A DNA stretch of 64,000 nt from Nitrospirales bacterium (GCA_965223185.1 OZ244988.1:2500613-2564612), one strand, 5' to 3'; shown: positions 3,040 through 26,542, counted from the stretch's first letter. The notes: generated from the letters alone by a model not told the origin. Translations and numbers: made by a program.

Positions 3040-3058
3040 TGCCTAATAGTCACATTTA

Positions 3059-3236: not shown

Positions 3237-3600
3237 ATTTTTTCTTTTGGGGTTTCGCCCCCGAACGCCGAGTTATTGCTTGCTGCGTCCTGTAAGGCGC
3301 GACCTTTGTAGTGGAGGCAAAAAGAACCCAAAACCAGTACCGTCCAGTCCGGCCAACTCGGAGGGGATGAACACAAAGAGAAGGGCAGGTCATTTTTTAT
3401 TATCAAATACCTCTTTCATTCTCACCTCAAACGTTTATTTCTTCGTAAAACGCACTCCTGAAAGGGCGAGGGGGTTCTGGAGTGTCTTAGTTGAAAGATA
3501 AAACGCTATAGTCACATATTGAGCCTGCAGGAATTGCCAGAGGTTACAAGGTAGGCTAAACTGATAATTATCAGTAAATCTTCTGTTGAAAGGAGTGTTC

Positions 3601-6540: not shown

Positions 6541-6554
6541 GATCCTTGAAATTC

Positions 6555-8392: not shown

Positions 8393-8478
8393 AAAAATGG
8401 GAGCTTGGTGCCCTGTATGAAAAAAGGCTTATATACGATTGTAACAAATAGGGACGGCGGGAAATCGACCGGCCTTTG

Positions 8479-10194: not shown

Positions 10195-10290
10195 GAAATA
10201 GGATCGACGGCAGGGATTGGATCAATAACTAGCATAACGTAAGGGGTGAAGGGTAAGGGGTAAGCAAAAGCATATCGTCTTCCTCTTACC

Positions 10291-11442
10291 TCACGCCTCA
10301 CGCTTTACGTTAGTTCGCTGGTTGACTGGGTGATAGGGGCGGTTGTGAGGGCCCTCGTAAATTTGGTCTGGGCGAAAAAGATGATTTTCTTGATACTGCT
10401 CAAAGCAATGAGCCAGCCATCCAGCCACACGAGCCATCGCAAATATTGGCGTGAAAAGATCGGTCTCGATGCCTAGCCGATGGTAAATTATCCCTGAATA
10501 AAAATCTACATTGGGTCGAATGCCTTTTGAGCCCACTCGGAGTTCCATGTGTTCCTCCACGGCTCTGGCAAGTGTAAAAAGAGATTGGCTGTCAGCTCCG
10601 ACATCCAATTGTTGAGCCAGATTTTGCATGACGATGGCCCGAGGATCTTTGACTTTATAGATTCGATGGCCAAATCCCATGATCTTTTCTTTTTTCGATA
10701 ATTTGTCGTCGAGATAGGGGGCGATACCGTCTTTTGATGAGATTTCTTCCAACATGTGGATGACTGCTTCATTGGCGCCGCCATGAAGTGGGCCTTCTAA
10801 TGTTCCAATGGCTGACGCAATCACCGTGAAGGGGTCAGCCAGAGTGGAAGCGGTGACCATCCCGCTGAACGTTGACGCATTCATAGTGTGCTCGGCATGC
10901 AGAATCAAGCAGATATCGAAGATGCGGACCAACGTTGGGTCGGGAACCTGTTCGGTTAACATGTAGAGGAAGTTTTCGGTGTAGGAAAGATCGTCGCGGG
11001 GTTGAATAGACGCATCTCCTCGCCGGAGTCGAGCAAAGGCGGCAACAATGGTGGGAAGTTTGGCTATCAATCGGACAGCGGTGAGATACCGAGTCTTCTC
11101 TTCAAGCACATCATGAACGGGATAAAACATCCCCAAAGCCGCAATGGCTGCTTGTAAGGCGTCCATGGGATGGCCCTGCTCCGGAAGCGCCTTCAAGAGA
11201 TCAATGATCCGATATTTAATTCGACGATGCTGGGAGATATCTTGGGTAAATTGATCGAGTTCAAGTTGGCTTGGAAGTCGGTTGAACAATAAAAGAAAGG
11301 CCGTTTCCAAAAACGAACTGTGTTCGGCCAGCTCTTCAACCCGGATTCCCCGGTACTCTAGAATGCCCTTCGCTCCATCTACGAAGCTGATGGAGGATTT
11401 TGCGGCAGGAATTCCTGCTAATCCAGGGAAGAAATCACGCAT
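10291..11442 (-). CDS. gltA: Citrate synthase (small type I / 2-methylcitrate synthase-like, 383 aa)
   Basis: Motifs LILHAEHTMNASTF, GPLHGGANE, GFGHRIYK..DPR and NVDFYSG are diagnostic of citrate synthases. Confidence 0.9.
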   Translation of the reverse strand: MRDFFPGLAGIPAAKSSISFVDGAKGILEYRGIRVEELAEHSSFLETAFLLLFNRLPSQLELDQFTQDISQHRRIKYRIIDLLKALPEQGHPMDALQAAIAALGMFYPVHDVLEEKTRYLTAVRLIAKLPTIVAAFARLRRGDASIQPRDDLSYTENFLYMLTEQVPDPTLVRIFDICLILHAEHTMNASTFSGMVTASTLADPFTVIASAIGTLEGPLHGGANEAVIHMLEEISSKDGIAPYLDDKLSKKEKIMGFGHRIYKVKDPRAIVMQNLAQQLDVGADSQSLFTLARAVEEHMELRVGSKGIRPNVDFYSGIIYHRLGIETDLFTPIFAMARVAGWLAHCFEQYQENHLFRPDQIYEGPHNRPYHPVNQRTNVKREA

Positions 11443-11828
11443 ATTTTTAAAATCTTTACTGGAGGGCTTTATTGAAGACCACAGTATCTAGATTCCCTCC
11501 CTTCATCATAACGGAATTTGCTGGGGTAGTGGGAGACTTTGCACAAAGTTTCCTTGAAAGAATCCTTTGAACTATTTAGGGGATACTTCTCATGTCTCTG
11601 CACTAATCTTCCTACAGCGGTTGTTTGGATATTGTAGGTAAGGCCCTGCATGTTATTCAGGCATTGGCTTCCTCAAAATATCGAGATACTTTCGCAACCC
11701 ATTGGAATTATTTTGGAATTATTTGGTGATGATTGAACGGAACAGCCTTTGCAGAACTAGCTTCAGCATTAATCGAGAATGACCGGATATCCAGTCTTGA
11801 TGGGCATCACATGCAGAGGAGGTTGGCC

Positions 11829-12179
11829 ATGAAACAGATAAGCTCTTTTTGTGTATGGGCGATAATTCTGGGATGCTTCGGAGTCATGCCAAGCTTTGCC
11901 GGAGATACGGATTTGAACAGTGCTCTTCTTCTCAGTAAAAAAGGGATGCAAACGCAATCAGCAGTGTCGGAAGAGGTGCCATCGAAATTTCAAAATGTTC
12001 AAGGAACGCTCAAGGAAATTCAGGGGAATGTCTACGTCGTGGAGGGAGACTCGAGTCAGGAATCAATTCGGGTCGAGATCGGGAGAGACACCGCTTTCCC
12101 TAATGGACATAAGGAACCCGGACAAATGTTGCAAGCCCTCATATCAACCAGCGATGGACATGCATTGATTGTTCGGTAA
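11829..12179 (+). CDS. Small secreted hypothetical protein
   Basis: I prefer the internal ATG at 11829, preceded by GAGGAGG. MKQISSFCVWAIILGCFGVMPSFAGD looks like a Sec signal peptide. The product has no recognisable family. Confidence 0.55.
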   Translation: MKQISSFCVWAIILGCFGVMPSFAGDTDLNSALLLSKKGMQTQSAVSEEVPSKFQNVQGTLKEIQGNVYVVEGDSSQESIRVEIGRDTAFPNGHKEPGQMLQALISTSDGHALIVR

Positions 12180-12550
12180 AAGGTGAAACGAAAGCAGGCA
12201 AGACCGTTATTCACATGCGGGAGGGTCGGACATTTCAGGGAGTTCACTTTGTCACTTGGGGGAGATACAGTGGGAAACCTGAAGTGTTCGGGCCTCCGCT
12301 ATTTTCAGAATGTATCATGTCTGTGACCGAAGGTCTATACAAATAATGAAGTGCGAAACTTGTTTCCATGAATGTACGACTTTTGATTTTGTCACGCTTC
12401 GAAATCTGTGTGAGCATTTGTACTTGGACTCGATTGCTAAAAAACACAACCCATTTCTATCTTGTGACCCCGTAAAGGTTCCCCGCAAAAATGAAGACCA
12501 TGAGTGGTGTTCAAAGTAATCCTCTTCCTTTCCGGCCTTAAGCTCAAAAG

Positions 12551-13465
12551 TCACCCTGCCTCGGACGAAAACTGTTTTTGGGCATGATAAGAACTCCGGA
12601 CCATGGGGCCGGATTCAACATGGTGAAAGCCAAGGGCTAAGCCTTCCTGTCTGAACTCTTCAAATTCCTCAGGCGTGTAATATCGTGCAACTGGTACGTG
12701 CCTAATAGTTGGTTGAAGATACTGACCGAGAGTGAGCATCCGGCATCCGACTGATCGAAGGTCTTTCATGACCATTCGAATTTCTTCCTTTGTTTCTCCC
12801 AATCCTGCCATGAGTCCTGATTTCGTGTGCCCCCCCATTTCTTGAGCCCATTGAAGCACCTGAAGGGACCGGGAGTACTTGCCTTGGGGTCGAATTGTGG
12901 GAAAGAGGCGTGGGACTGTTTCAATATTGTGATTCAGGATGTCCGGTTTTTCGCCCACAATGGTTGTAATATTTTCACGATGGCCTTGAAAGTCTGGAAT
13001 AAGAACTTCCACCGTACATTGAGGATTGGTGTGCCGAATTCTCCTGATGGTTTCTGAAAAAAGCTCTACTCCTCCATCTGGAAGATCATCGCGATTGACT
13101 GATGTAATGACTGCGTGCCGAAGATTTAAGAGCTTGACGGCATTGGCTATCCGTTGTGGCTCTTCGGTGTCCAGGGCCAATGGTCGGCCTGTGGTGACGG
13201 AGCAGTAGTGACAGCGCCTGGTGCAAATTTCTCCAAGAATAAGAAATGTAGCGGTTCGAGCATTCCAACATTCCCATAGATTTGGGCAACGAGCTTCTTC
13301 GCAAATGGTATGGAGGCGATGGGTCTCAGTGAGCTGCCGAAGTTCTTTATAATGGGGGCCTGGTCGTAGTTGAACCTTAAACCAATGGGGGAGGGATGAC
13401 CTTTGAGGAGGAGATTTTGTTGTATGCAGGCTAGACGCAATTGACGTGGTTGGGATAAAAGTCAT
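12551..13465 (-). CDS. lipA: Lipoyl synthase
   Basis: CEEARCPNLWECW plus the radical-SAM motif CTRRCHYCSV, then SGLMAGLGET and the C-terminal VRSSYHA. The ORF-track start at 13528 is a TTG, so I annotate the first ATG at 13465. Confidence 0.9.
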   Translation of the reverse strand: MTFIPTTSIASSLHTTKSPPQRSSLPHWFKVQLRPGPHYKELRQLTETHRLHTICEEARCPNLWECWNARTATFLILGEICTRRCHYCSVTTGRPLALDTEEPQRIANAVKLLNLRHAVITSVNRDDLPDGGVELFSETIRRIRHTNPQCTVEVLIPDFQGHRENITTIVGEKPDILNHNIETVPRLFPTIRPQGKYSRSLQVLQWAQEMGGHTKSGLMAGLGETKEEIRMVMKDLRSVGCRMLTLGQYLQPTIRHVPVARYYTPEEFEEFRQEGLALGFHHVESGPMVRSSYHAQKQFSSEAG

Positions 13466-13646
13466 CGTGTAGGTCGAATTTCCAAAAACTTCAAGAAAAT
13501 CTGTTGGCCAATAGATACTGGTTACCAATTAAGAAGGTCTCATCATAACATGTTGGGTATGGCATGCCTACTTCTACCAAGGTCGTACGCGTGAAAAAAT
13601 ATCTATGAAGGACTTATGAGGTCAGTTTACTCTGGAAAGAGATGCT

Positions 13647-14870
13647 TTAAGAAATCATTGGCGAGAAGTGATTGGCCCATTCAATGGCTTCCAAATAAAA
13701 ATCTCGAATAATAGAGGGGTCTAATTGCAGATGTTTGAGTTTCATCCATTCACCTTCTTCGTAGGCTTTGGCACTAGAAAGAACCAACCCCATCTCTCCC
13801 TTTTCTTCAATCAACGCGTCAAGGATATCCTCAGGTAAAGGAAGTTTTTCAAGAATTTCTTGCATGGGTAATTCGTATAAGGATTCTAAAACGGACAATA
13901 ATCCCATCGTGAAATATTTTTCAGGAGTAGGGCTTCCGAGTCTTTGTCCCAGCCGTTCGCACATTTTGGCGCGAACTAGGGCAATGACCAAAATTTCTGC
14001 CGCTTGATTTTGTCCGCTGGCCATAATAATGAGCGTGGCCCATGTTCGAATGCGGTCAATCCCTACTAGGCATGCGGCGTGCTCGATGGAGTCCACTCGT
14101 TTGGGAAGCCCGACGTAGGCGGAATTGACGTAGCGCAAGACCTTATAGCTCAGCGATAAATCATTGCGGATATGTTCCACGAGGCCTTTAAAGGGAATCT
14201 GTGGGTCTTGAATTTTTCCCATTAATTCCAATAAGGCAATGCGGTTGGCTGGGATCTCTCGGCCTTTAATGATATCGGGGCGAAAAAAGAAAAAGCCTTG
14301 GAAGTAAAAAAACCCGAGCTTGCGACATATTTCATACATTTCTCGAGATTCCACTTTTTCGGCCAGGAGGCGTGTTCGCGAATCCTGTAGCTGGGACACT
14401 TCTTGCTGCAATTGCTGTTCGTTTTTCCCTAAGACATCGATTTTGACAATGTCGGCGACGTTCAGAAATAAGCGGGAGGATTCATTATAGACAAAATCAT
14501 CGAGCGCGATGGTATAGCCTTGTTGTGAAAGTGAGAAAAGCGCTTGGAGGACCTGAGGGGTCGGTTCGACATTTTCAAGAATTTCTAAGACCACTCGATT
14601 TTTGGGGAGTGCTTCACAATAGCGTCCTAATAAAAATTGCTTTGGAATATTCAGAAAAGCCAAATGAGAACCCACGACATGCTCTAGGCCGATATCTAGA
14701 TAAGTATTGAGGAGAACCGTGGCAGTCGCAACCTCTTCGTCACTAAACATGGCCTGTCCAATCTCACAATTTCGATACAAGACTTCATATCCAATTGTTT
14801 TCATGGTTGGGCTGAGAATGGGTTGTCGCCCGACAAACACATCTCCGTACTGGGCGGTGGCAGATTTCAT
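13647..14870 (-). CDS. EAL-like plus HDOD two-domain signalling protein (YuxH/COG3434-type)
   Basis: The N-terminal half has EAL-fold motifs in variant form (GYEVLYRN, ALDDFVYN, IVKIDV, AEKVES). The C-terminal half has an HDOD-like sequence (LSYKVLRYVNSAYVG...). Confidence 0.8.
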   Translation of the reverse strand: MKSATAQYGDVFVGRQPILSPTMKTIGYEVLYRNCEIGQAMFSDEEVATATVLLNTYLDIGLEHVVGSHLAFLNIPKQFLLGRYCEALPKNRVVLEILENVEPTPQVLQALFSLSQQGYTIALDDFVYNESSRLFLNVADIVKIDVLGKNEQQLQQEVSQLQDSRTRLLAEKVESREMYEICRKLGFFYFQGFFFFRPDIIKGREIPANRIALLELMGKIQDPQIPFKGLVEHIRNDLSLSYKVLRYVNSAYVGLPKRVDSIEHAACLVGIDRIRTWATLIIMASGQNQAAEILVIALVRAKMCERLGQRLGSPTPEKYFTMGLLSVLESLYELPMQEILEKLPLPEDILDALIEEKGEMGLVLSSAKAYEEGEWMKLKHLQLDPSIIRDFYLEAIEWANHFSPMIS

Positions 14871-15027
14871 CGTGGTTCTCTATATGATCTGGCTAATGGC
14901 TTGATGCCCATGCATGGTATGACTGGATGAAACATTGAAAAATATAGGAATCATGGTTTCTGCTGGACGAAACCCTCTAGGTGGAATACTGCCCATATTT
15001 TCGGCAGAATCTCCTAGGCAATTAAGA

Positions 15028-15045
15028 TTTCCCAGATCTGGGAAA
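15028..15045. promoter_or_regulatory. Perfect 18-bp palindrome TTTCCCAGATCTGGGAAA, a candidate operator upstream of the EAL-HDOD gene
   Basis: Read directly from the sequence. It lies about 160 bp upstream of the ATG at 14870 (minus strand), in a 450-bp intergenic region. Confidence 0.3.
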
Positions 15046-15077
15046 GGTCATCCTGCAAACCCTGAGAGAATTGTTAG

Positions 15078-15123
15078 TAGAAAACCTGGCCGTTCCCTTT
15101 TGTGGATGTTATGAAGGGAACGG
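15078..15123 (-). terminator. Candidate rho-independent terminator after the REC-GGDEF-EAL gene
   Basis: 10-bp stem ccgttccctt / aagggaacgg (15090-15099 and 15114-15123), followed on the minus strand by ccaggTTTTc. It lies about 200 nt downstream of the stop at 15320. Confidence 0.4.
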
Positions 15124-15319
15124 AGTAAGTAGTGAATGAGGAGAGCGGTTGCTATCGATTACGTTACGTTTTGAGAAGTTAGGTGAAAAGAAGACTTAAA
15201 ATGACTCTGGTCAGGTCAAGCTTGTTGGAATCGAATCAAATGCCAAAAAGGAACTAGAATTGGTAGATGTCGGAAATAACGAATTGACGGTGTCAATGTA
15301 AGAAAGGGGAAAAGCATGC

Positions 15320-17179
15320 TCAGGCCTTCTCGTCCGGTAGGCCAACCTGTTGATTTGTTAGCATCGGAACAAGGTCTGCTGCGCTAACAGGGCGACTAAA
15401 GAAATATCCCTGATATTCTTCGCATTCCAAGTGCAGTAACATTTCAAGCTGCTCTCGTGTTTCGACCCCTTCGGCAACGACCTTGAGCCCGAATTCGTGG
15501 GCAAGAAAAATCATGGCCGCCACTAAGGCTTTGTCTTCTGAATTTTCCGTACTACCCTTCAAAAATGATCGATCGATTTTTAGTTCATGGAGGGGAAATT
15601 GTTTAAGGTAGCTTAACGATGAGTATCCCGTTCCGAAGTCATCCATAGCGATTTTCACTCCTAGACCCATGAGCTGTTTGAGTATTTTAATGGCATGTTC
15701 GGCATTGCCCATCAAAAGAGTTTCGGTCATTTCGAGTGTTAAATATTCTTCCTTCACTCCATGCCTTTTGAGCATTTCCTCCACCAAATACATCAATGTT
15801 TCGTCATGAAATTGTTTGGCGGAGATATTCACGGAAAGGTGAATCCATAGGCCCTGTGCTTGCCAACGGGCTAATTGCGCACAGGCTTCATTGAGTACCC
15901 AATCGCCAATGGGTTTGATCAGGCCGGTATCTTCAGCTAAAGGAATGAAGTAGTCAGGAAATTTGAGTGTGCCATCGGCTTGCTGCCATCGGATCAGGGC
16001 TTCAACTCCCGTTATTTGACCGTGTTTCACATCGACCTTAGGTTGATAGTGCAACAGGAGTTGTTCTCCATTTTTAATAGCATTCCGCAACTCGGCTTCA
16101 AGGGTTAACCGTCCATAGCTTTTCGCATTGAGATCTCGCGAATAAAATTCAAAACTTCCTTTGTCTGTAATTCCAACCTGGTCGCTGGCACCTACAGCAC
16201 ATTGGATCAAATTAGTAACATCACTGGCATCCGTCGGATAGGTGGCAATCCCGATATTGGGGAAGATATGGACAGGAGTGTTATTGGTCTCAAATGAAGG
16301 TTCCATGATTTCAATAATCCGAGAGGCAACCTTTGTAGCATTTTCCGGATTAGACAATTGTGGACACACAATCGTGAATTCTTCTGCACTTACACGAAAG
16401 AGACATGTCATGTCGTACTCATGCATGGATCTCTGACTCATCAGATCTGATTCTCGAATGCAACCTTGAATGCGTTCGGCGATCTGTTTGATGATCTGAT
16501 CGGCCACCTGCGGTCCTAACACCGAGTAGACTCGTTTAAATTGCTGGAGCGTGATATGTAAAATGGCCAGGTTTTGATGGTGGCGTTCGGCCTGTTGAAG
16601 GAACCACCCCAAGCGGTCGAGAAATAACGTACGGTTCGGTAGTTGTGTCAAGGTATCATAGTAGACTAATTGGTTTTGATAGGCTTTTGCTGCTAGCGTA
16701 TTCCGTACACGTAAGGTTAATTCACTGGGATCGACTGGTTTGGCCAGAAAATCGGTGGCCCCATAGTCCAAGGCCTTAAGTTTGGTCTGAGCATCGGAGG
16801 AAGATGTCAGAATAATAATGGGAAGATGAGAGTGCTGGGGATGTGCTCTCACCTGTTCCAAGATTTCGAAGCCATTCACCTCGGGCATCATGAGGTCCAG
16901 CAAGACAATATCGGGCTGAAACTCCTCAATCCGTGCGATGGTCTCTGAGGAATGCTCAATGAGGACGAAACGCTGATAACCGGCCTCTTCCAGAAAGGTT
17001 TGCATTACATCCAGCGTAGTTCCCTCATCGTCTACCATCATAATGGTAGCCTGCGTCAGGGATTCGGTGTTGTTTTTTAATTCATTTGGTAAACAATTAC
17101 CAATAACCATGCTTCTCTCATGAGATGAGGCAGGAGGAAATTGTATAGTATTTTCTGGTGTCAGACTGTTTGGACTCAT
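15320..17179 (-). CDS. Response regulator with REC, degenerate GGDEF (SAEEF) and intact EAL domains; a likely phosphorylation-controlled c-di-GMP phosphodiesterase
   Basis: REC: MMVDDEG...IVLLDLMMPEVNG...KP. GGDEF position reads RVSAEEF. EAL motifs: GVEALIRW, DDFGTGYSSLSYL, ELKIDRSF, AEGVETREQ. Confidence 0.88.
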   Translation of the reverse strand: MSPNSLTPENTIQFPPASSHERSMVIGNCLPNELKNNTESLTQATIMMVDDEGTTLDVMQTFLEEAGYQRFVLIEHSSETIARIEEFQPDIVLLDLMMPEVNGFEILEQVRAHPQHSHLPIIILTSSSDAQTKLKALDYGATDFLAKPVDPSELTLRVRNTLAAKAYQNQLVYYDTLTQLPNRTLFLDRLGWFLQQAERHHQNLAILHITLQQFKRVYSVLGPQVADQIIKQIAERIQGCIRESDLMSQRSMHEYDMTCLFRVSAEEFTIVCPQLSNPENATKVASRIIEIMEPSFETNNTPVHIFPNIGIATYPTDASDVTNLIQCAVGASDQVGITDKGSFEFYSRDLNAKSYGRLTLEAELRNAIKNGEQLLLHYQPKVDVKHGQITGVEALIRWQQADGTLKFPDYFIPLAEDTGLIKPIGDWVLNEACAQLARWQAQGLWIHLSVNISAKQFHDETLMYLVEEMLKRHGVKEEYLTLEMTETLLMGNAEHAIKILKQLMGLGVKIAMDDFGTGYSSLSYLKQFPLHELKIDRSFLKGSTENSEDKALVAAMIFLAHEFGLKVVAEGVETREQLEMLLHLECEEYQGYFFSRPVSAADLVPMLTNQQVGLPDEKA

Positions 17180-17355
17180 CAGATTTTTGGGCTAAATCTA
17201 TGTGTTTCACTAGGTTCCAACTGGTTGTGCCATATGGGAACCTACAGATCCTGGAAAACAATGCACATTCCTCTCCCTTTTTGTCGGTCAGACACAGTTG
17301 AATCCTAAATGAGGGTGGTGAGGGGAAATTACTTTTCCCATAAAATATTTCACAA

Positions 17356-19869
17356 TCACTCTTTGTCTTGGGTTGTGGTGGCGAGTTGAGCGGGAGCAGA
17401 AATTCGTGCTGCAAGGTCGTGAATCATACCCATATGTCGTTCGACATCGGAAAAATCACCCGATTTGGCCGCTAATTCCAATTCATTGGCTGGTTCGACA
17501 AAGACATCGAACCCGACCGTTCCTCCTGCGCCTTTGAGCCAATGGGCCAATTGGGCCAATTCTTTAAAGTCTTTCGCTCGGCAGGCTTCATTCATGGCCG
17601 GTAACTGGTTTTCCAATCGTCCTAAAAAACGGGCAATCACCTTGGCAAACTTGGGATTGTCATGGCCAAGCCTGGAATAAATGGGGCCTGGTTCTGTTTG
17701 TGTAGTGGATGTCGAAGGCAGAGTATTTGATGTGGTTGAATCGGAAACGGGTTCTATGATTGGTTCGGCCCGAAGCCATGAAGCTAATTTTGAGAAAAAC
17801 AAGTCCAGATGAATGGGTTTGGGGATAAAATCGGTGTATCCGGCTATCTCAAGTTCTTCGCCGAATCCTTTCATGGCGTTCGCTGTTAAGGCAATAATCG
17901 GTGTCTGCACACCACGGTCACGTATATTTTTTGTGGCGCTCAAGCCGTCCATTTTTGGCATTTGCACATCCATAAGAATCAGATCGTAATCCGTGGTGGT
18001 GGCCATCTCAATCGCCATCAAACCGTTGTCTGCTTCGTCAATGGTGAGCCCGTATCCTTCCAAGACCGCCCGTACGAATTCTCGATTTTCTGGGCCGTCA
18101 TCGACCACCAAAATGTGAGATTTTGGAAAGATCCAGGTGGAAGATTCTTGAATTTCAGTTTTTTCAGGGGTAGTCATTGCCAGCTCTGGAGTGATCCAGG
18201 CCACACCGTCTGCGCTACCGCCATCGAGCGTGACCATGAATCGGCTACCTTTCCCCCGCTGACTGTCCACGGTGATATCGCCACCCATCGCACGAGCAAA
18301 TTTTCGACTGATTGACAACCCCAGACCGGTTCCTCCGAATTTTCGAGTCGTTGAGGCATCGGCCTGCACGAAATCTTCGAAAATGCGACCAAGAGCATCT
18401 TCATTCATTCCCACTCCGGTGTCTGTAATATCGACATGAAATTGGATGGCTTTCTGTTGGGTTTGTTCGGCATATGCACTCACCGTGACGCCTCCCAATT
18501 CAGTGAATTTGATGGCATTGCCGATAAGGTTCGTGACAATCTGACGGAGTTTTCCCGGATCATTGGTGATGATTTCAGGGACGGTGTCTTGGATCTGAAG
18601 ATCAAGGGTAATGCCTTTCTTTCCTGCCTGAAATCCCAGGACTTTGACGACTTCCAAAATCACTAAATAAGGATTGAAGGGGATTCGTTCGATATCAAGA
18701 CGTCCGGATTCCACTTTGGAAAGGTCTAAGATATCGTTAATCAGTTCTAGAAGGTGGGTTCCGCTGGAATGGATAATTTCTAAATGATTGAGGGTTTGTT
18801 GTGGATCACGGCCGAAATCGCGCTTCAGTAATTCCGTGAACCCTAAGATGGCGTTCATCGGGGTACGGATTTCATGGCTCATGTTGGCCAGAAAGACACT
18901 CTTAGCCTGATTGGCCGATTCAGCGGCTTCCTTGGCGCTCAATAATTCAATTTCGGCTTCCTCCAATTGAGTGATATCATCAAAACTCACGAGGACTCCA
19001 ACATATTGAGCTCCACTTCCCAGAATTGGGGAACAATTGATCATGAATGTCAGTCGAGTATCGGTAGAAATAGTCAGACGAATTCGCTGATTTTTTTGAG
19101 CTTCGCCTGTGATCAAAGCCACATGCCAAGGAAAAGAGTTTGGTTCTAACGATTGTCCTTCCGACATAGACCACTGAAAATCGTTCACTCGTCGACCTAA
19201 CAAAGCTTCCGGTGACGTGTTTAAGTCCTCGGCAAAGGCTCGGTTAGCGAGCAAAATCTGTTCTTTGTTGTCCAACACCAAAAGTCCTTCTGCCATGGTA
19301 TCTAAGGCTGATCGCACTCGTTCAGGAACGGCTTGTGAGGGGTCAAGTTGTTTCAGCATTTTCCCCAAGTACAGATAAAAGCCAAGAAAGCAAAGGAGAC
19401 CGACGAACATAAGCAATTGCGTATGTTGCCCGGTAAGCATCGCTATCCAGTTTTCATCCACCAAAGGACTGAATCGTAATTCAACACGCCCCCATTTACT
19501 CTGCCCTTCCCATATAGAGACCGACAGTTGCGTATTGCCTGAGAGATCAGATTCGTCATCGACCCAATGGGCCTCATGATCGCCAATGGTCACGAGTCGT
19601 TGCCCGGATTCGATGCGAATGGCTGCGGACAGGAGATCCTTATTCCGATTTACAACCAATCCCAGGACACCTTCAAGGCGTTCAAGATCTTTTTGAGTGA
19701 TAAAGATGGAACTATTGGCAGCGATGGCTTCTGCCAAGGCAGCACGACCCTCTCGGGCAGGTGTGATGGGATCAGGCAAAAGGCCGAATAGGCTGGCGGT
19801 CAAAAGAACGCTGGTCAAAAGGCTTACTAATCCAATAGTCAGCCGGGATTTTGTGGAAAGAAAAGTCAT
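17356..19869 (-). CDS. Hybrid sensor histidine kinase: TM, periplasmic domain, TM, PAS, HisKA, HATPase, REC and Hpt
   Basis: H-box MSHEIRTPMNAILGF, N/G boxes NLIGNAIKFT and DTGVGM..GGTGLGLSI, REC LILMDVQMPKMDG, Hpt HWLKGAGGTVG. The ATG overlaps the stop of the upstream giant gene (ATGA at 19866-19869). Confidence 0.9.
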   Translation of the reverse strand: MTFLSTKSRLTIGLVSLLTSVLLTASLFGLLPDPITPAREGRAALAEAIAANSSIFITQKDLERLEGVLGLVVNRNKDLLSAAIRIESGQRLVTIGDHEAHWVDDESDLSGNTQLSVSIWEGQSKWGRVELRFSPLVDENWIAMLTGQHTQLLMFVGLLCFLGFYLYLGKMLKQLDPSQAVPERVRSALDTMAEGLLVLDNKEQILLANRAFAEDLNTSPEALLGRRVNDFQWSMSEGQSLEPNSFPWHVALITGEAQKNQRIRLTISTDTRLTFMINCSPILGSGAQYVGVLVSFDDITQLEEAEIELLSAKEAAESANQAKSVFLANMSHEIRTPMNAILGFTELLKRDFGRDPQQTLNHLEIIHSSGTHLLELINDILDLSKVESGRLDIERIPFNPYLVILEVVKVLGFQAGKKGITLDLQIQDTVPEIITNDPGKLRQIVTNLIGNAIKFTELGGVTVSAYAEQTQQKAIQFHVDITDTGVGMNEDALGRIFEDFVQADASTTRKFGGTGLGLSISRKFARAMGGDITVDSQRGKGSRFMVTLDGGSADGVAWITPELAMTTPEKTEIQESSTWIFPKSHILVVDDGPENREFVRAVLEGYGLTIDEADNGLMAIEMATTTDYDLILMDVQMPKMDGLSATKNIRDRGVQTPIIALTANAMKGFGEELEIAGYTDFIPKPIHLDLFFSKLASWLRAEPIIEPVSDSTTSNTLPSTSTTQTEPGPIYSRLGHDNPKFAKVIARFLGRLENQLPAMNEACRAKDFKELAQLAHWLKGAGGTVGFDVFVEPANELELAAKSGDFSDVERHMGMIHDLAARISAPAQLATTTQDKE

Positions 19870-22800
19870 GGGGAAGGTCGCCGAAACCAGGGGAATAACC
19901 GTGTCCTGAATCTGGCCGAGGTTAATTTTCCGGAGAGCTCGGTTGAATGGCGTTGCTCTTCGAACATAGACTCCAGGGAATCATCTTCTAAGTCTGTGCG
20001 TTCACTCTTGCGAATCTTTTTTGATGGTGATCCCAATACCAGAAGAGGATTCACCAATTGCCAAGCCGGGACTGACGATAAGAGGGCCGTGAGAAGGACA
20101 CCACTTCGCAACAGCCAGATCACATAGCCAATGGACAATCCAGTCGTTGCAGCTATACTGGATGCCAAATAAGTTTTTTCGGTGGCCACGACATTATTGA
20201 GTGAGTCTCTGGCTTGATCGAGTTCTCTGAGAAATCCCGAAGCGTTCCCCAGGAGCGCTTGAACCTCGCTTTTCACATTCGAAAGACTTAATGGCTTTAT
20301 CAATAGGTCAAACACGCCGCTCATGCTGGTCCCATTGCCTTTATGGCTTTTCTGTGATTCAAGCAAAGACAAATTTTGTTCGATTGGTTTCCGAAGAGCA
20401 TCCTCTTTTTCGGGCCCATCGGTCGTCGTGGTCGAAGTGGATTTCGAAGAAAATCCTTGAGATGTAGAGATGAAATTCATGCCAATTACAGGCTGTTCTT
20501 CATCAGGAATCCCCTCGTCTGGAGGCGGCGAAGGGGAGGGAGATGGACTTGGTGAAGGAGGAAGAACAATGACCGGAGCATTGGTCACCGTGACGGCAAG
20601 GGCTTGGGTGTCGATCAATGTGCCATCCGAGGCTTGTACGATCACGTCATAGACATTGTCGGCGCCGACATCGTTTGGCGCGCCAAGGTTTGGCGCGCTG
20701 ATGAAAGACAGAGCCCCTGTATTCGGGTCGATAGAGAACAAGGCTGCATCGGCTCCGCCGGTTATGCTGTAGGTAAGGGTTGCACCTTCTGCATCAAAGG
20801 CATTGACCGTGGTGACAGCGGTATTACCTTCGATGACCGTAGCGGTACCAGTGGTCCCACCTCCATTGGACGTAATGATGGGGGCATCGTTTTGTGGCGT
20901 AATCGTGAGGCTCACGGTCACGGTATTTGAAGTAGCTCCGGCCAGGTCCCTGATCGTATAGGTAAAGCTGTCGGAAAGAGTTTCAGATCCATTGTGGGTG
21001 TATTCCACAGTCCCATTGGTATTGATGTTTGTGATAGCGCCATTGGTGGGCCCTGAGACAATGGTGATACTGGTCAAATCCAATCCGTCGTCAGCATCAG
21101 TATCATTAATTGCCAGATCAAGGGTATTCACAGACCCCTCATTTACGGTCAAAGCATCAGCAACTGCGGTTGGCGGATCATTAACTGGATTGACATTGAT
21201 AGTTGTTCTGGCTGGAGCACTGGGGGCCGTACCGTCGTTGACGGTAACGTCAATCAATCGGTTCCCTCCGGTAGGCGTGGCGGCATCTGTATGTTGGTAT
21301 TGAATTGCCCTGATCAGCGTTTCTGTTTCAATTTCAGTAAAGGTTCCCCCGCCCTGTTTGGTGATAGTCATGGTGGCTGTGCCGGCTCCAGTGGTCAGCA
21401 CCACGCGATAATTCCCTCCACTGGTATTTTGTCCTGCCACCGCTGTGGCCAAGGCGAACACGTCTCCATCCAACAGGAGTGTTTCACTGTTACCATCCAA
21501 TAATCCGGTGATAGCCAGAGTGACGGTGGTAAAGGTGGGACTATCCAAATCGTTCAGGTCAGCATCTGAATCGGCAATGGCGGTGGGTGCGTCCCCTTCG
21601 GTGAACGTGAATTGATAATCATTGCCTGTGGCTCCTGAGCTATCGTTTAAGTCCAAATCGATAGTCGGGATGATCGATGAACTGGCTTCGTATGCTCCGA
21701 TATCCACATTGGCATCACGTGTAGCACCACGTTGATCTACGGTGGGAGCCCCCAAATTGGCACCGGCGTTGATGGCAGGACTTCCGCCCAAAAGGCTATG
21801 TGTCTGAGTTGGTCCGCCGTTGTCGGCCAAGGCCCCTAAAAGCGGGTCCATTCCGTCTAATGGATCTCCCAAACCGGCCGTCCCGTCGCTATCGATGTTA
21901 TTTCCCAGGGAGTTGAGTGTACTGCTGGCATTGCCGCCAGTATTAGAAGCCAAAATAGTGTTTCTGAGGATAGCCGATCCACCGCCGGCTTGATTAATCC
22001 CACCACCATTGCTGGCTGAGTTAAATGCGACTGTGGAGTTGGTCAACGTGACCGTCGATCGTGTGAAAATCCCGCCGCCATTGCTCGAAGCGGAATTTCC
22101 ACTTATGGTGGAATTCGTAACCTGGGTTACCCCTCCGGAACTCAGATTGAGTCCAGCACCCACGTTCGCGCTATTCCCCGAGACCGTGACCCGGTTAAGC
22201 TCTAATGGGCTAGACGTATCAAGGCCGCCACCTTGGGAACCTGCCGTGTTTCCGGTAATGGCCACGTCTCGAAGTGTTACTGTCCCTCCGCCTGATCGGA
22301 TTTGGATTCCTGCCCCTTGGGTGGCACTACCATTTTGAATGGTCAGATCCGAAATAGTGACTGTTTGACCATGAATATCAAGGACCCGATCGGATCCAAG
22401 TCCATCGATGATAGTGGTTTGGGCACCAGCTCCGGTGATGATGACCCCCTGACGAATGTCCAGATCTCCAGTTGCGCCCAAATCTTCTGAGGTTCCTGTC
22501 AACGACAGCGTATAAGTCCCAGCCGGGAGCATGATGGTATCCCCACCTGAGCCTGCGTTTACTTGAATGATGGCTTCGCGGAGCGAGGTCACTCCATCGC
22601 CACCATTAATCACGTCGGCGAAGGTATCGACAGTGATGACCGCCAGTTTCCCCACCCACTTTTCTTGTGTCTCAGCATTGACTGTGACTTGTGTCTCAAT
22701 CGTTCCTGTTCGATATTCCAGGTCCCAATTCCCGTGATATTGAGGGTTGCCGGTGTCATCGATACTGGCGGCGACATCAGTGCCGGTTAATTCAGCTAAG

Positions 22801-23585
22801 AGTGTGGCCGCCGCTTGGCCAATTTCGCCCTTGCCGAAATTGCAGCCGTAGATGAGGAAATCCGCATCATCTGTTAAGGCTTGGTTGATGATGGCGAGAT
22901 CATTGGCGTATTTCTCTTCCATGGATTTTTGAGTGAGAAGCCCTGTGCCTAACCGCAATTCACCTTGATTGCCATGCGAAATTATATGGATGGCGTCAAC
23001 GTCGGTGCGTTCGCTCAAAACTTCTGCAATTTGGTCGACGCCATCTCGCGTGGAATCCAGCAAAACGGCCTCAGCTCCGGAGTCTATTCCGAGTAGTAAG
23101 GTGTGGTAATCCTCGACATTGGTATCGATAAACACGATTTCTTTCCGATCGGAGAGAGGCGGCGTCACTGTCGACAATGCAGCGTAAAGGTCAATGTCGC
23201 CTATCAAAGGGTCTGAAGGGATTTGATCCTCAGCTCCGATTGCTGAAAAGTCTTGATCGAGCGTAGTCATATCTTGTGGGTCTTGTTGCTGGAGAACTTC
23301 GGCCCCGGTGACCAAGGCCGCACCGTCAAACATGATTCTCGGTTCAAGAGCCAGAAGTGTGCCGAGACCACTGGGCCGGGGAAGGGGATATGTTGCTTCG
23401 CCGCGATCGCGCTTGGAGATATGTGGACGGGTGGCCGCTCTTTGTCTTGTTCGATTATTCAAAAGGCGAGTTGATTGGTTGGGGAGAGTGTCTGTGGCTG
23501 ACCCATAAATAGGCCAAGTCGCACTCATCCCCAACAGGGCGATTACGACAGTATTCCCGCCTAGATACACGTATTCCCAGAGCAT
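19866..23585 (-). CDS. Large repetitive surface protein 1 (1239 aa): LEPRIMFDGA motif, DUF4347-like domain, SLREAI right-handed beta-helix, cadherin-like modules, Pro/Ser linker, C-terminal double-TM anchor
   Basis: The ATG at 23585 is preceded by GGAGGAA. Motifs: LLALEPRIMFDGAALVTGAEV; SDRKEIVFIDTNVEDYHTL...IHIISHGNQGELRLG (DUF4347-like); TSLREAIIQVNAG...DIGAYE (beta-helix / choice-of-anchor-Q-like); NDPPTAV and NDAPIITS cadherin-like modules; PPSPSPSPSPSPPP; TGLSIGYVIWLLRSGVLLTALLSSVPAWQLVNPLLVL. Confidence 0.9.
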   Translation of the reverse strand: MLWEYVYLGGNTVVIALLGMSATWPIYGSATDTLPNQSTRLLNNRTRQRAATRPHISKRDRGEATYPLPRPSGLGTLLALEPRIMFDGAALVTGAEVLQQQDPQDMTTLDQDFSAIGAEDQIPSDPLIGDIDLYAALSTVTPPLSDRKEIVFIDTNVEDYHTLLLGIDSGAEAVLLDSTRDGVDQIAEVLSERTDVDAIHIISHGNQGELRLGTGLLTQKSMEEKYANDLAIINQALTDDADFLIYGCNFGKGEIGQAAATLLAELTGTDVAASIDDTGNPQYHGNWDLEYRTGTIETQVTVNAETQEKWVGKLAVITVDTFADVINGGDGVTSLREAIIQVNAGSGGDTIMLPAGTYTLSLTGTSEDLGATGDLDIRQGVIITGAGAQTTIIDGLGSDRVLDIHGQTVTISDLTIQNGSATQGAGIQIRSGGGTVTLRDVAITGNTAGSQGGGLDTSSPLELNRVTVSGNSANVGAGLNLSSGGVTQVTNSTISGNSASSNGGGIFTRSTVTLTNSTVAFNSASNGGGINQAGGGSAILRNTILASNTGGNASSTLNSLGNNIDSDGTAGLGDPLDGMDPLLGALADNGGPTQTHSLLGGSPAINAGANLGAPTVDQRGATRDANVDIGAYEASSSIIPTIDLDLNDSSGATGNDYQFTFTEGDAPTAIADSDADLNDLDSPTFTTVTLAITGLLDGNSETLLLDGDVFALATAVAGQNTSGGNYRVVLTTGAGTATMTITKQGGGTFTEIETETLIRAIQYQHTDAATPTGGNRLIDVTVNDGTAPSAPARTTINVNPVNDPPTAVADALTVNEGSVNTLDLAINDTDADDGLDLTSITIVSGPTNGAITNINTNGTVEYTHNGSETLSDSFTYTIRDLAGATSNTVTVSLTITPQNDAPIITSNGGGTTGTATVIEGNTAVTTVNAFDAEGATLTYSITGGADAALFSIDPNTGALSFISAPNLGAPNDVGADNVYDVIVQASDGTLIDTQALAVTVTNAPVIVLPPSPSPSPSPSPPPDEGIPDEEQPVIGMNFISTSQGFSSKSTSTTTTDGPEKEDALRKPIEQNLSLLESQKSHKGNGTSMSGVFDLLIKPLSLSNVKSEVQALLGNASGFLRELDQARDSLNNVVATEKTYLASSIAATTGLSIGYVIWLLRSGVLLTALLSSVPAWQLVNPLLVLGSPSKKIRKSERTDLEDDSLESMFEEQRHSTELSGKLTSARFRTRLFPWFRRPSP

Positions 23586-24037
23586 CCTATTCCTCCATCT
23601 CCCTTTTCGGATTCTTCAATGACGATCTGGAAACCGTTCATGAAAAAAGGTGATTTCTCGTGATCATTAGTGGCGGTTAGGCGAAGTTGATACCCGATAT
23701 AAAAATACGTGATTGGAAAAGAAATTACTAAAAGGATCAAGGAGTTAATTCCACATCGAAAAAAACCGAAAGACTGGACTGGAGTCCTACCAACCGTGAG
23801 GAAACGAGCGACGTGAGGAGGAGAGGAAGGGTATCTGTGAATGAGGGACCTTTATGCATTGAGGAAATGAAAGATAGAAATGAGTTGAGCAGGGGTCGAT
23901 GAGCCAAGCGCGGTGGGATTCAGGGCTTGGAAAATGTCGGGCTGTGAACGAGGTCGACCACTGGGATGGTGGGTTGTCTGCATGCAATGACAGAATGTGG
24001 ATAGACTCGATCACGTTTGGGTGTATCCAGTACACAT

Positions 24038-26490: not shown

Positions 26491-26542
26491 TAGCATCTTG
26501 GAAAGATCTTCATCTCAGAAAGAGAAGTAGACAAACGGCGAT

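What the first reader, a model, noticed from the sequence alone, without database searches (positions are those of the whole stretch)
13647..19869. Paralogous sensor input modules wired to opposite c-di-GMP outputs (phosphorelay to an EAL phosphodiesterase versus a direct GGDEF cyclase)
The first ~310 aa of the hybrid kinase (17356..19869) and of the cyclase (48661..50181) align throughout. Both have TM1, a periplasmic segment of about 120 aa ending in ..(S/R)(K/E)(W)G(R/T)V(E/Q)LRF(S/R)(P/S)L, TM2, LDPS..VP.RV..A.D, and a PAS-like block ..NC(S/T)PIL...GVLVSFDD(I/V)T(Q/R)LEE. After that point they diverge into HisKA-HATPase-REC-Hpt and GGDEF respectively.

Downstream of the kinase, on the same strand, lie a REC-(SAEEF)-EAL response regulator (15320..17179) and an EAL-like/HDOD protein (13647..14870).

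Inference: the same kind of stimulus, possibly the state of the cognate giant protein, is read by two paralogues. One drives c-di-GMP synthesis. The other, through phosphotransfer, drives c-di-GMP hydrolysis. That would make a push-pull circuit.

The periplasmic segment reminds me of the LapD/MoxY N-terminal domain. That is recollection, not a verified hit.
Basis: partly seen in the sequence, partly recalled or inferred. Interest (0 to 1): 0.7.

Follow-up and report, generated by a model that had tools for sequence, protein, structure and literature searches.

The report
Giant-protein-coupled sensors with opposite c-di-GMP outputs

Summary
The first ~310 aa of the hybrid kinase (17356..19869, -) and the cyclase (48661..50181, +) align at 36% identity, E=6e-58. 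The periplasmic part alone gives E=6e-19.

Both have TM, a ~120-aa periplasmic PAS/PDC-like domain, TM, an LDPS..VP.RVR linker and a PAS domain. They then diverge into HisKA-HATPase-REC-Hpt or GGDEF.

- Each sensor overlaps (ATGA) the stop codon of a DUF4347 giant gene. This giant-then-sensor order holds in 71/74 kinase-type and 46/50 cyclase-type loci from many phyla.
- The two sensors are not a local duplication. They represent two old subfamilies: one tree split separates 94/95 kinase-type from 0/68 cyclase-type.
- The kinase type is followed by a REC-GGDEF*-EAL regulator with intact EAL residues in 68/73 loci, against 2/23 for the cyclase type.

The outputs found in the family are hybrid kinase, GGDEF, GGDEF-EAL and GGDEF-HD-GYP.

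"Opposite enzymatic outputs" is well supported. "Same stimulus", phosphotransfer and the sign of regulation remain inference. The LapD_MoxY_N recollection fails HMM tests, and only a weak fold match to a LapD orthologue exists. No literature describes the system.

The parts
17356..19869 (-). Sensor hybrid histidine kinase, 837 aa. TM1 is about aa 10-30, the periplasmic PAS/PDC-like domain about 31-150, TM2 about 150-172, followed by the LDPSQAVPERVRSALD linker. PAS is 183-306, HisKA 323-389 (H-box SHEIRTP at 331), HATPase 437-549, REC 586-691 (MDVQMP at 633) and Hpt 744-823 (HWLKGAGG at 776).
   Evidence: Pfam; motif positions; AF2 model pLDDT 85
19324..19869 (-). Kinase input module (aa 1-182: TM, periplasmic domain, TM, start of LDPS linker). 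Not covered by any Pfam or NCBIfam model.
   Evidence: AF2; Foldseek; family size 1398 cluster representatives at E<=1e-3
48661..50181 (+). Sensor diguanylate cyclase, 506 aa. Same input module (aa 1-183) and PAS (185-303), then GGDEF 320-479 with GGEEF at 399 and an RPTD I-site at 390.
15320..17179 (-). Response regulator REC (46-158) - degenerate GGDEF (SAEEF) - EAL (362-597). EAL, N, ExxE, DDFGTG, KxD, EGVE and QG residues are intact. Predicted phosphodiesterase and phosphorelay target.
   Evidence: orthologue motif conservation; synteny 61/65 and 7/8 kinase-type loci
13647..14870 (-). Divergent EAL-like domain (EVL, DDFVYN, EKVES) fused to HDOD. Found only in Nitrospirales versions of the cassette.
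   Evidence: present in 15/61 loci, all titled Nitrospirales, Nitrospira or Nitrospirae
19866..23585 (-). Giant protein 1, 1239 aa. LEPRIMFDGAA motif, DUF4347, choice-of-anchor Q, cadherin-like/Big_9 repeats, Pro-rich spacer and a conserved C-terminal hydrophobic module. Its stop codon overlaps the kinase start (ATGA).
33764..48664 (+). Giant protein 2, 4966 aa. Same N-terminal motif plus DUF4347, a long repeat array, a PEPEPTPEP spacer and the same type of C-terminal module. Its stop codon overlaps the cyclase start (ATGA).
24017..30138 (+). Putative export genes shared by the two giants: OEP/TolC-like (24017..25636), HlyD-type adaptor (25633..26490), GAF-HlyD (26543..28006) and M50 intramembrane-metalloprotease-HlyD fusion (28000..30138). 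No ABC ATPase.
   Evidence: co-located with the cassette in related loci
51078..51944 (-). Stand-alone HDOD protein near the cyclase. Recurs near cyclase-type sensors in other loci.
   Evidence: HDOD within 10 kb in L002 and in L084, L085, L087-L089, L108, L120, L130

Best explanation
The window holds two copies of a conserved cassette: a DUF4347 giant surface protein followed by a membrane sensor dedicated to c-di-GMP.

Shared layout. Each sensor gene is translationally coupled to the 3' end of its giant gene. Each sensor carries the same undescribed input: TM, a PAS/PDC-like periplasmic domain, TM, an LDPS linker and a cytoplasmic PAS.

Cyclase type. In the sensor after giant 2, the input directly controls a GGDEF cyclase that has an I-site.

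Kinase type. In the sensor after giant 1, the input controls a hybrid kinase. Its His-Asp-His relay most likely ends on the adjacent REC-GGDEF*-EAL regulator, which is a phosphodiesterase.

Net effect. One giant-sensor line makes c-di-GMP and the other removes it.

What is shown: homology of the inputs, the domain and catalytic-motif content, the gene overlap, the cross-phylum synteny, and the finding that only c-di-GMP-related outputs occur in this family.

What is inferred:
- Each sensor reads the state of its own giant (export, anchoring, cleavage or load at the inner-membrane C-terminal module).
- Hpt phosphorylates the neighbouring REC.
- Phosphorylation switches the EAL domain on.
- The two arms are antagonistic in vivo.
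For: - Input homology: E=6e-58 overall, and E=6e-19 for the periplasmic part alone.
- Gene overlap: a 4-nt ATGA overlap of giant stop and sensor start for both pairs. In 146 related loci the gap is exactly -4 in 48 and within +/-20 nt in 104.
- Giant upstream: the giant C-terminal module lies directly upstream in 71/74 kinase-type genome loci. In metagenome loci the figures are 46/50 cyclase-type and 12/12 kinase-type.
- Regulator downstream: REC-GGDEF-EAL lies downstream of the kinase type in 61/65 and 7/8 loci, but of the cyclase type in only 2/23.
- Regulator chemistry: across 72 orthologues the EAL catalytic motifs and REC Asp are conserved. The GGDEF motif is canonical in 17/72.
- Cyclase chemistry: GGEEF plus RxxD. 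The kinase has H, N, G1 and G2 boxes, the REC Asp and the Hpt His.
- Subfamily age: an NJ tree of 165 input modules separates 94/95 kinase-type from 0/68 cyclase-type in one split.
- Pairing with the giant: the giant C-terminus type follows the sensor type, 85/87 and 54/57.
- Shared ligand surface: the same periplasmic residues (P32, R42, E47, A50, R75, S81, R85, H98, W102, W126, G127, E130, F133) are >=85% conserved in both clades.
- Outputs: among the top 150 cluster representatives the only outputs are hybrid kinase, GGDEF, GGDEF-(GGDEF*)-EAL and GGDEF-HD-GYP.
- Both types together elsewhere: L054 (Betaproteobacteria MAG) and L061 (Spirochaetaceae MAG) carry both in one locus.
- Weak co-variation: distances of the giant C-module track the sensor's periplasmic and TM parts after controlling for PAS (partial r 0.40-0.57) slightly better than the reverse (0.27-0.35).
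Against: - No experiment or co-folding links the sensor's periplasmic domain to the giant.
- Co-inheritance of adjacent genes would by itself produce the C-terminus/sensor-type correlation and much of the mirror-tree signal.
- PDC-like periplasmic domains usually bind small molecules.
- Some loci have giant-giant-sensor (L001, L012), so the C-terminal module is not strictly one per sensor.
- The kinase-to-regulator gap here is 176 nt, so they are not overlapping genes.
- The direction in which the stimulus moves kinase, phosphatase or cyclase activity is unknown. So is the effect of REC phosphorylation on the EAL domain.
- 17/72 regulator orthologues keep a canonical GGDEF and could be bifunctional.
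Confidence: 0.55

Rival explanations
1. The sensors are ordinary environmental sensors. The PDC-like periplasmic domain or the cytoplasmic PAS binds a small molecule or senses a physical cue. The c-di-GMP output then controls expression, export or retention of the adjacent giant proteins. On this view the gene linkage marks the regulatory target, not the source of the signal.
For: - After the LapD orthologue, the closest folds are generic ligand-binding PDC/PAS sensor domains: 3cwf, 3lie, WalK 4ywz at TM 0.63, and Tlp3.
- Invariant polar and aromatic residues (R42, E47, R75, R85, H98, W102, W126, E130) could line a ligand pocket.
- A GAF domain on one HlyD adaptor and the EAL-like-HDOD and HDOD proteins could be downstream effectors.
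Against: - Stop/start overlap with the giant gene is unusually tight and conserved.
- Sensor subfamily and giant C-terminus type co-segregate almost perfectly.
- A free-standing environmental sensor would be expected to occur in other genomic contexts. Here it does so in only 3/74 and 4/50 loci.
Confidence: 0.25
2. The two arms are not antagonistic. REC phosphorylation may inhibit the EAL domain. The kinase may act mainly as a phosphatase under stimulus. The regulator may act as a c-di-GMP or GTP sensor or scaffold. In any of these cases both lines would push c-di-GMP the same way, or act on separate local pools with no push-pull.
For: - The sign of regulation cannot be read from sequence.
- 17/72 regulator orthologues retain canonical GGDEF.
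- Single-chain relatives carry GGDEF together with EAL or HD-GYP. Synthesis and breakdown can therefore sit behind one input and be switched reciprocally within one protein, without a second sensor.
Against: - EAL catalytic residues are near-invariant while GGDEF decays. Selection therefore acts on hydrolysis in the kinase arm.
- From my own knowledge, known REC-EAL regulators such as RocR, PvrR, VieA and RavR are generally activated, or at least controlled, as phosphodiesterases by their kinases.
Confidence: 0.15
3. The module is a true LapD-type domain working inside-out. The periplasmic domain would be an output that captures a periplasmic protease, or the giant itself, according to the cytoplasmic state. 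This is the mechanism of LapD/LapG/LapA.
For: - The best Foldseek hit of the periplasmic model is the output domain of the Legionella LapD orthologue CdgS9 (4u64, E=1.3e-3, TM 0.54/0.51).
- The topology is the same (alpha-alpha-beta-beta-(alpha)-beta-beta) and the span is nearly the same (31-150 against 22-151).
- Conserved Trp residues sit in similar places: H98xxxW102 and W126-G127 by the beta3-beta4 turn, against PxWF 103-106 and GWxQ 124-127 in LapD (PMC3032553).
Against: - Neither LapD_MoxY_N nor the full-length LapD equivalog HMM aligns to the module.
- A 30-sequence profile of the module finds no LapD chain in PDB at E<=10.
- There is no HAMP and no c-di-GMP-binding degenerate EAL receptor in the sensors.
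- No LapG-like protease or ABC exporter was seen among the window proteins scanned.
- The cytoplasmic domains are enzymes that emit signals, not receptors.
Confidence: 0.05

Closest known systems
LapD/LapG/LapA system (Pseudomonas fluorescens; CdgS9 in Legionella)
   Same: - A giant surface protein is tied to a dedicated inner-membrane c-di-GMP signalling protein.
- That protein has TM, a ~130-aa PDC-like periplasmic domain and a second TM.
- The periplasmic fold is the top structural match.
- Conserved Trp residues sit at comparable positions.
   Different: - LapD is a receptor (HAMP plus degenerate GGDEF-EAL) that signals inside-out to a protease. Here the cytoplasmic parts are an active-looking kinase or cyclase, so signalling is presumably outside-in.
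- No HMM-level similarity.
- No LapG and no ABC-type T1SS.
- The giants are DUF4347 proteins with a C-terminal hydrophobic module, not LapA-type RTX adhesins.
Two-component control of EAL phosphodiesterases (RocS1/RocR, PvrS/PvrR, VieS/VieA, RavS/RavR; ArrS/ArrR, PMC11841396)
   Same: A (hybrid) histidine kinase is paired with a REC-containing EAL or GGDEF*-EAL regulator, so that phosphorylation governs c-di-GMP breakdown. The regulator here scores 196.7 bits against the PvrR model, below its 580-bit cut-off.
   Different: The input module is different and undescribed. The pair is embedded in a giant-protein cassette and is matched by a paralogous direct cyclase. No equivalog cut-off is reached for any named system.
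PDC/Cache-type extracytoplasmic sensor domains of histidine kinases (CitA/DcuS, WalK, vpHK1S-Z8)
   Same: An alpha-helical N-terminus followed by an antiparallel sheet, inserted between two TM helices. TM-scores are 0.54-0.63.
   Different: Foldseek E-values are only 1e-2 to 1e-1. The module has four strands, not the usual five. There are no Cache, PDC or PAS Pfam hits on residues 1-180.
Bifunctional GGDEF-EAL / GGDEF-HD-GYP sensor proteins
   Same: Relatives of the cyclase-type sensor carry GGDEF plus (GGDEF*)-EAL or HD-GYP behind the same input (L108, L152, L115; 11 of the top 150 representatives). One input thus governs both synthesis and breakdown.
   Different: In this window the two activities are split between two paralogous sensors, and one of them acts through a phosphorelay.

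Membership tests
LapD_MoxY_N (Pfam PF16448) / LapD periplasmic output domain | Significant match to the family HMM | tested here: not met
   There is no hit to residues 1-190 of either sensor at E<=10. The full-length LapD equivalog NF045673 aligns only to the GGDEF region of the cyclase. Profile A6 finds no LapD chain in PDB sequences at E<=10.
LapD_MoxY_N (Pfam PF16448) / LapD periplasmic output domain | PDC-like alpha-alpha-beta-beta/beta-beta fold between two TM helices, with a conserved Trp at the beta3-beta4 loop | tested here: inconclusive
   The AF2 model has this topology. The top Foldseek hit is 4u64, a LapD orthologue, but at E=1.3e-3, TM about 0.5 and rmsd 8 A, and generic PDC domains score similarly. 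W126-G127 lies next to the beta3-beta4 turn, against GWxQ 124-127 in LapD.
LapD-type c-di-GMP receptor system | HAMP plus degenerate GGDEF-EAL receptor, LapG protease and an ABC T1SS in the locus | tested here: not met
   No HAMP, LapG-like or ABC transporter hit appears in the window proteins scanned.
Hybrid histidine kinase (HisKA family) with Hpt | H-box His, N/G1/G2 ATP-binding boxes, REC Asp and Hpt HxxKG | tested here: met
   Pfam HisKA 3.7e-21, HATPase_c 2e-27, REC 5.6e-27, Hpt 8.2e-11. Motifs SHEIRTP 331, NLIGNAIKF 447, DTGVGM 483, GGTGLGL 512, MDVQMP 633 and HWLKGAGG 776 are present.
Active diguanylate cyclase (GGDEF) | GG(D/E)EF active site; RxxD I-site optional | tested here: met
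   GGDEF 6.4e-43. GGEEF at 399 and RPTD at 390. Enzyme activity was not assayed.
Active EAL phosphodiesterase (regulator 15320..17179) | EAL, catalytic Asn, ExxE, DDFGTG, KxD, EGVE and Q residues | tested here: met
   EAL 4.2e-75. All motifs are present and conserved in 72 orthologues. Enzyme activity was not assayed.
Cognate two-component pair (kinase Hpt to REC of the GGDEF*-EAL protein) | Specific phosphotransfer | not testable with these tools
   Only genomic evidence is available: same strand, and adjacent in 61/65 and 7/8 kinase-type loci against 2/23 cyclase-type loci.
Type I secretion giant adhesin (LapA/RTX type) | ABC transporter plus MFP plus OMP, and a C-terminal RTX secretion signal | tested here: not met
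   OMP and three HlyD-type adaptors are present, but there is no ABC ATPase. One adaptor is fused to an M50 protease and one to GAF. The giants end in a hydrophobic module, not RTX repeats.

The most novel reading that the evidence does not exclude
The conserved C-terminal membrane module of DUF4347 giants would form a stoichiometric inner-membrane complex with the sensor's TM-periplasmic-TM input. That module consists of a TonB-like Pro-rich spacer, the TGLSVGYVxWLLRsGVLLsSLLSSlPAW..DPLPVL motif and a charged tail. The cell would then read export, cleavage (by the M50-HlyD protease) or mechanical load of each giant surface protein directly as c-di-GMP synthesis or breakdown. This would be an outside-in counterpart of LapD, built on an ABC-less export apparatus and spread over more than a thousand protein clusters in many phyla.
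Probability: 0.3. Interest if true: 0.85.

Novelty: new variant of a known kind. Interest (0 to 1): 0.6.

Why it matters
c-di-GMP control of giant adhesins is understood mainly through the inside-out LapD/LapG/LapA paradigm.

This locus points to a different, widespread arrangement. An undescribed membrane input domain is welded genetically to DUF4347 giant proteins. Among the relatives examined it is wired only to c-di-GMP-making or c-di-GMP-breaking outputs. The family has 1398 cluster representatives at 50% identity, found in Nitrospirota, Gamma- and Betaproteobacteria, Desulfobacterota, Planctomycetota and other phyla.

If the sensors read the state of their giants, this would be a direct feedback from surface-protein deployment or adhesion to second-messenger level. 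It would also give a handle on the unknown function of DUF4347 proteins and their unusual export genes.

Cultured hosts exist that carry the kinase-type cassette, so the hypothesis is testable: Marinobacter spp., Psychromonas arctica DSM 14288, Amphritea balenae, Dasania phycosphaerae and Nitrospira sp. T9.

Taken alone, one input domain fused to different outputs is common in bacterial signalling and would not be remarkable.

Tried and rejected
- Pfam and NCBIfam scans of the N-terminal 190 aa at E<=10 gave only noise: Rnk_N at 0.03 and SMP_2 at 0.019.
- A profile search of the input module against PDB sequences returned only coiled-coil noise.
- Foldseek with the whole 310-aa model was dominated by the cytoplasmic PAS domain. 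It had to be repeated with the periplasmic part alone.
Narrower alignments A2 and A5 worked.
- The exact-sequence lookup of the window's cyclase found nothing on record.
- Rfam found no c-di-GMP riboswitch or any other RNA family in the window. A riboswitch-closed feedback loop is therefore not supported.
- Literature searches for DUF4347, for M50/HlyD/cadherin/cyclase and for giant protein/c-di-GMP/Nitrospira found no description of this system.
- A mirror-tree test of giant C-module against sensor parts gave only a weak excess for the membrane and periplasmic parts. It is not decisive.
- I could not measure how often both sensor types occur in one genome. The single genome scan kept only the 80 best loci, all kinase-type.
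- Chance similarity is rejected.
- A recent local duplication is rejected. The two modules are about as far from each other as from the other subfamily in other phyla, and the tree splits by output.

Full report
**1. Checking the observation**

BLASTP of the 837-aa product of 17356..19869 (-) against the 506-aa product of 48661..50181 (+) gives a single collinear HSP. It covers residues 10-318 of both proteins at 36% identity with two gaps, E=6e-58.

The similarity does not come only from the generic PAS domain.
- The TM-periplasmic-TM part (1-180) scores E=4e-31.
- The periplasmic segment alone (31-150) scores E=6e-19.
- Its Smith-Waterman score is 161, against 28.5 +/- 5.2 for 500 shuffles.

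Pfam finds PAS, HisKA, HATPase_c, REC and Hpt in the first protein. It finds PAS and GGDEF in the second.

Downstream of the kinase on the same strand lie two genes.
- A REC-GGDEF-EAL protein at 15320..17179, whose GGDEF motif reads SAEEF.
- A protein with a partial, divergent EAL domain plus HDOD at 13647..14870.

The one exception is the recollection about LapD/MoxY (section 3).

**2. What surrounds the sensors**

Both sensors start with an ATG that overlaps, as ATGA, the stop codon of a very large gene.
- Giant 1 is 19866..23585 (-), 1239 aa.
- Giant 2 is 33764..48664 (+), 4966 aa.

The giants share several features.
- An N-terminal motif LEPRIMFDGAA followed by DUF4347.
- Long cadherin-like/Big_9 repeat arrays.
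- A Pro-rich spacer.
- A conserved C-terminal hydrophobic module that no Pfam or NCBIfam model covers. Its consensus is TGLSVGYVxWLLRsGVLLsSLLSSlPAWxfxDPLPVL, followed by a charged tail.

Between the giants lie four genes:
- an OEP/TolC-like gene;
- a HlyD-type adaptor;
- a GAF-HlyD fusion;
- an M50 (site-2-protease-like)-HlyD fusion.

There is no ABC ATPase. The best relatives place the window in Nitrospirales.

**3. The input module**

No Pfam or NCBIfam model covers residues 1-180. This holds even at E<=10, and the full-length LapD equivalog does not align there.

AlphaFold2 with a 68-sequence alignment gives a confident model, with mean pLDDT 85 for residues 1-310 and 79 for the periplasmic part alone. 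The layout is as follows.
- TM1.
- Two periplasmic helices.
- Two strands, a short helix, then two more strands.
- TM2.
- A short, highly conserved linker (LDPS..VP.RVR.A.D).
- A canonical PAS domain.

Foldseek of the periplasmic model against PDB has as its top hit the periplasmic output domain of the Legionella LapD orthologue CdgS9 (4u64). The match is weak, at E=1.3e-3, TM 0.54/0.51 and rmsd 8 A. Generic PDC/PAS-like sensor domains follow closely: 3cwf, 3lie, and WalK 4ywz at TM 0.63.

The LapD paper describes its output domain (PMC3032553).
- It spans residues 22-151 and is PDC-like.
- It has a PxWF motif at 103-106.
- It has a strictly conserved GWxQ at 124-127, in the beta3-beta4 loop.

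The module here spans 31-150. It has near-invariant H98...W102, and W126-G127 next to the beta3-beta4 turn.

That positional parallel is suggestive. However, a 30-sequence profile of the module finds no LapD chain in PDB sequences at E<=10. Membership in LapD_MoxY_N is therefore not supported. A distant relationship remains open.

**4. Distribution and synteny**

An exhaustive phmmer search with residues 1-182 finds 1398 cluster representatives at E<=1e-3 and 935 at E<=1e-10. A scan of one genome per species found at least 445 relatives. Record and source names cover these groups:
- Nitrospirota;
- many Gammaproteobacteria, including cultured Marinobacter, Psychromonas arctica, Amphritea balenae and Dasania;
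- Betaproteobacteria;
- Desulfobacterota and Myxococcota;
- Entotheonella;
- Rhodothermales;
- Planctomycetota.

I surveyed 80 kinase-type genome loci and 80 metagenome loci, the latter fetched with a cyclase-type alignment. The survey used tblastn with the window's own proteins.

| Feature | Kinase-type loci | Cyclase-type loci |
|---|---|---|
| Giant C-terminal module directly upstream, same strand | 71/74 and 12/12 | 46/50 |
| REC-GGDEF-EAL gene downstream | 61/65 and 7/8 | 2/23 |

Other survey results:
- The giant-to-sensor gap is exactly -4 nt in 48 of 146 loci, and within +/-20 nt in 104.
- The EAL-like-HDOD gene is present in 15/61 loci. All of them are titled Nitrospirales, Nitrospira or Nitrospirae.
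- A DUF4347 N-domain lies within 10 kb upstream in 35/43 loci with enough flank. The M50-HlyD gene lies within +/-10 kb in 21/43.

The giant-then-sensor cassette is therefore an old, conserved unit and not a peculiarity of this genome.

**5. Two old subfamilies, not a local duplication**

A neighbour-joining tree of 165 input modules has one split with 94 of 95 kinase-type and none of 68 cyclase-type sequences on one side.

The window's kinase module is 85% identical to Nitrospirales orthologues. Its cyclase module is 82% identical to a metagenomic orthologue. The two window modules are about 36-41% identical to each other.

The type of giant C-terminus follows the sensor type. 85/87 kinase-type loci match giant 1's C-terminus better, and 54/57 cyclase-type loci match giant 2's. 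Both sensor types also occur together in single loci from a Betaproteobacteria MAG (L054) and a Spirochaetaceae MAG (L061).

The periplasmic residues conserved at >=85% are the same in both subfamilies: P32, R42, E47, A50, R75, S81, R85, G96, H98, W102, S110, V117, W126, G127, E130 and F133. This fits recognition of the same kind of ligand or partner.

**6. Outputs**

- **Cyclase.** It has GGEEF (399) and an RxxD I-site (RPTD, 390).
- **Kinase.** It has the H, N, G1 and G2 boxes, the REC Asp and the Hpt HxxKG.
- **Regulator.** Across 72 orthologues the REC acidic pocket, Thr/Ser and Lys are conserved. So are all EAL signature residues (EAL, N, ExxE, DDFGTG, KxD, EGVE, QG). The GGDEF motif is canonical in only 17/72. 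Selection therefore preserves hydrolysis, not synthesis, in the kinase arm.
- **Range of outputs in the family.** Among the best 150 cluster representatives the only outputs are hybrid kinase (about 55 full-length), GGDEF (13), GGDEF-(GGDEF*)-EAL (6) and GGDEF-HD-GYP (5).

Among the relatives examined, the input is thus always coupled to c-di-GMP turnover. In some relatives one input sits in front of both a synthesising and a degrading domain.

**7. Most likely mechanism**

Shown:
- Two homologous inputs.
- Opposite enzymatic chemistry at the ends of the two pathways.
- Tight, conserved genetic coupling of each sensor to a giant gene.

Inferred:
- Each sensor monitors its own giant at the inner membrane and converts that state into c-di-GMP synthesis (giant 2 line) or hydrolysis (giant 1 line). 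The likely point of contact is the giant's C-terminal module.
- Hydrolysis in the giant 1 line would run through the relay His, Asp, His, then Asp of the REC-GGDEF*-EAL protein.

A mirror-tree test gives only weak support. Giant C-module distances correlate with sensor periplasmic and TM distances after controlling for PAS (partial r 0.40-0.57). The reverse gives somewhat less (0.27-0.35).

Caveats:
- Adjacent genes co-inherit anyway.
- Some loci carry two giants before one sensor (L001, L012).
- The kinase-to-regulator gap here is 176 nt.
- The sign of every regulatory step is unknown.

**8. Rivals**

- **Environmental sensor (0.25).** The periplasmic PDC-like domain binds a small molecule, and the giants are targets and not signals.
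- **No antagonism (0.15).** The arms are not antagonistic in vivo.
- **LapD-type inside-out (0.05).** The module is a true LapD-type output domain. The HMM results, the lack of HAMP, receptor EAL, LapG and ABC, and the enzymatic nature of the cytoplasmic domains all argue against this.
- **Chance or local duplication.** Both are rejected.

**9. Comparison with known systems and novelty**

The logic resembles the Lap system, in which a giant adhesin is paired with a dedicated inner-membrane c-di-GMP protein. It also resembles kinase-controlled EAL regulators: RocS1/RocR, PvrS/PvrR, VieS/VieA, RavS/RavR (from my own knowledge) and ArrS/ArrR (PMC11841396).

The differences are these.
- The input domain is undescribed.
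- The presumed information flow is outside-in.
- The giants are DUF4347 proteins with a C-terminal hydrophobic module.
- The export genes lack an ABC transporter.
- The cassette comes in kinase and cyclase flavours that can coexist.

Full-text searches found no functional work on DUF4347 or on this arrangement.

I classify it as a new variant of a known kind. Interest is moderate to high (0.6). The bare fact that one input is fused to two outputs is ordinary. The conserved welding of a c-di-GMP-dedicated sensor family to giant surface-protein genes is not described, and it is experimentally approachable.

Noticed in passing
window 19866..23585 (-) aa ~80 and 33764..48664 (+) aa ~54; related loci L001-L163: Both giants carry the motif LEPRIMFDGAA just before DUF4347 and have no obvious signal peptide. 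A strict regex (LE.R.[ML][FLM][DS][GA]) finds it upstream of DUF4347 in 32/57 related loci. It could be an export or leader-cleavage signal.
   Followed up: partly
window ~19866..20260 (-) and ~48270..48664 (+): The giants share an unannotated C-terminal module: a TonB-like Pro-rich spacer, about 100 aa, a conserved hydrophobic motif (TGLSVGYVxWLLRsGVLLsSLLSSlPAW..DPLPVL) with a central Arg and Ser/Pro helix-breakers, then a charged tail. Its topology and role (anchor, sorting signal, M50 substrate) are unknown.
   Followed up: partly
window 24017..30138 (+): This is an unusual putative export set: OEP plus three HlyD-type adaptors. One adaptor is fused to a GAF domain. Another is fused to an M50 intramembrane metalloprotease, which has a sub-threshold hit to daptide_HExxH at 1.7e-45. 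There is no ABC ATPase in the window. The same trio follows a cyclase-type sensor in a Nitrosomonas contig (L002).
   Followed up: partly
window 30160..33100: A cluster of small toxin-antitoxin-like genes sits between the export genes and giant 2. They are PIN 31315..31827 (Pfam PIN), with an AbrB-like ORF at 31713..32108; a second PIN-like ORF at 32391..32810, with a Phd-like ORF at 32810..33067; and a nucleotidyltransferase-like ORF at 30859..31149. Apart from the first PIN, these labels are my reading of the ORF translations and were not scanned.
   Followed up: no
L108, L152, L115 (metagenome loci); P0218, P0234, P0208, P0246 and others: The same input module occurs in single chains with GGDEF-GGDEF*-EAL (about 1035 aa) or GGDEF-HD-GYP (about 830 aa). 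Both synthesis and breakdown then sit behind one input.
   Followed up: partly
L118: This is the one kinase-output sensor whose input module groups with the cyclase clade. It may represent a second, independent output swap.
   Followed up: no
window 50232..50981 (-) and 51078..51944 (-): A TIGR04255-family protein and a stand-alone HDOD protein lie just downstream of the cyclase. Both recur next to the closest cyclase-type orthologues (L085, L086 for TIGR04255; L084, L085 and others for HDOD).
   Followed up: partly
window 61309..63885 (+): An 858-aa protein matches BrxC/BrxD (BREX ATP-binding protein) at 9.8e-33. It is a possible defence gene at the window edge.
   Followed up: no
window 1..64000: No Rfam family reaches threshold anywhere in the window. 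In particular there is no c-di-GMP riboswitch near the giant or export genes.
   Followed up: yes
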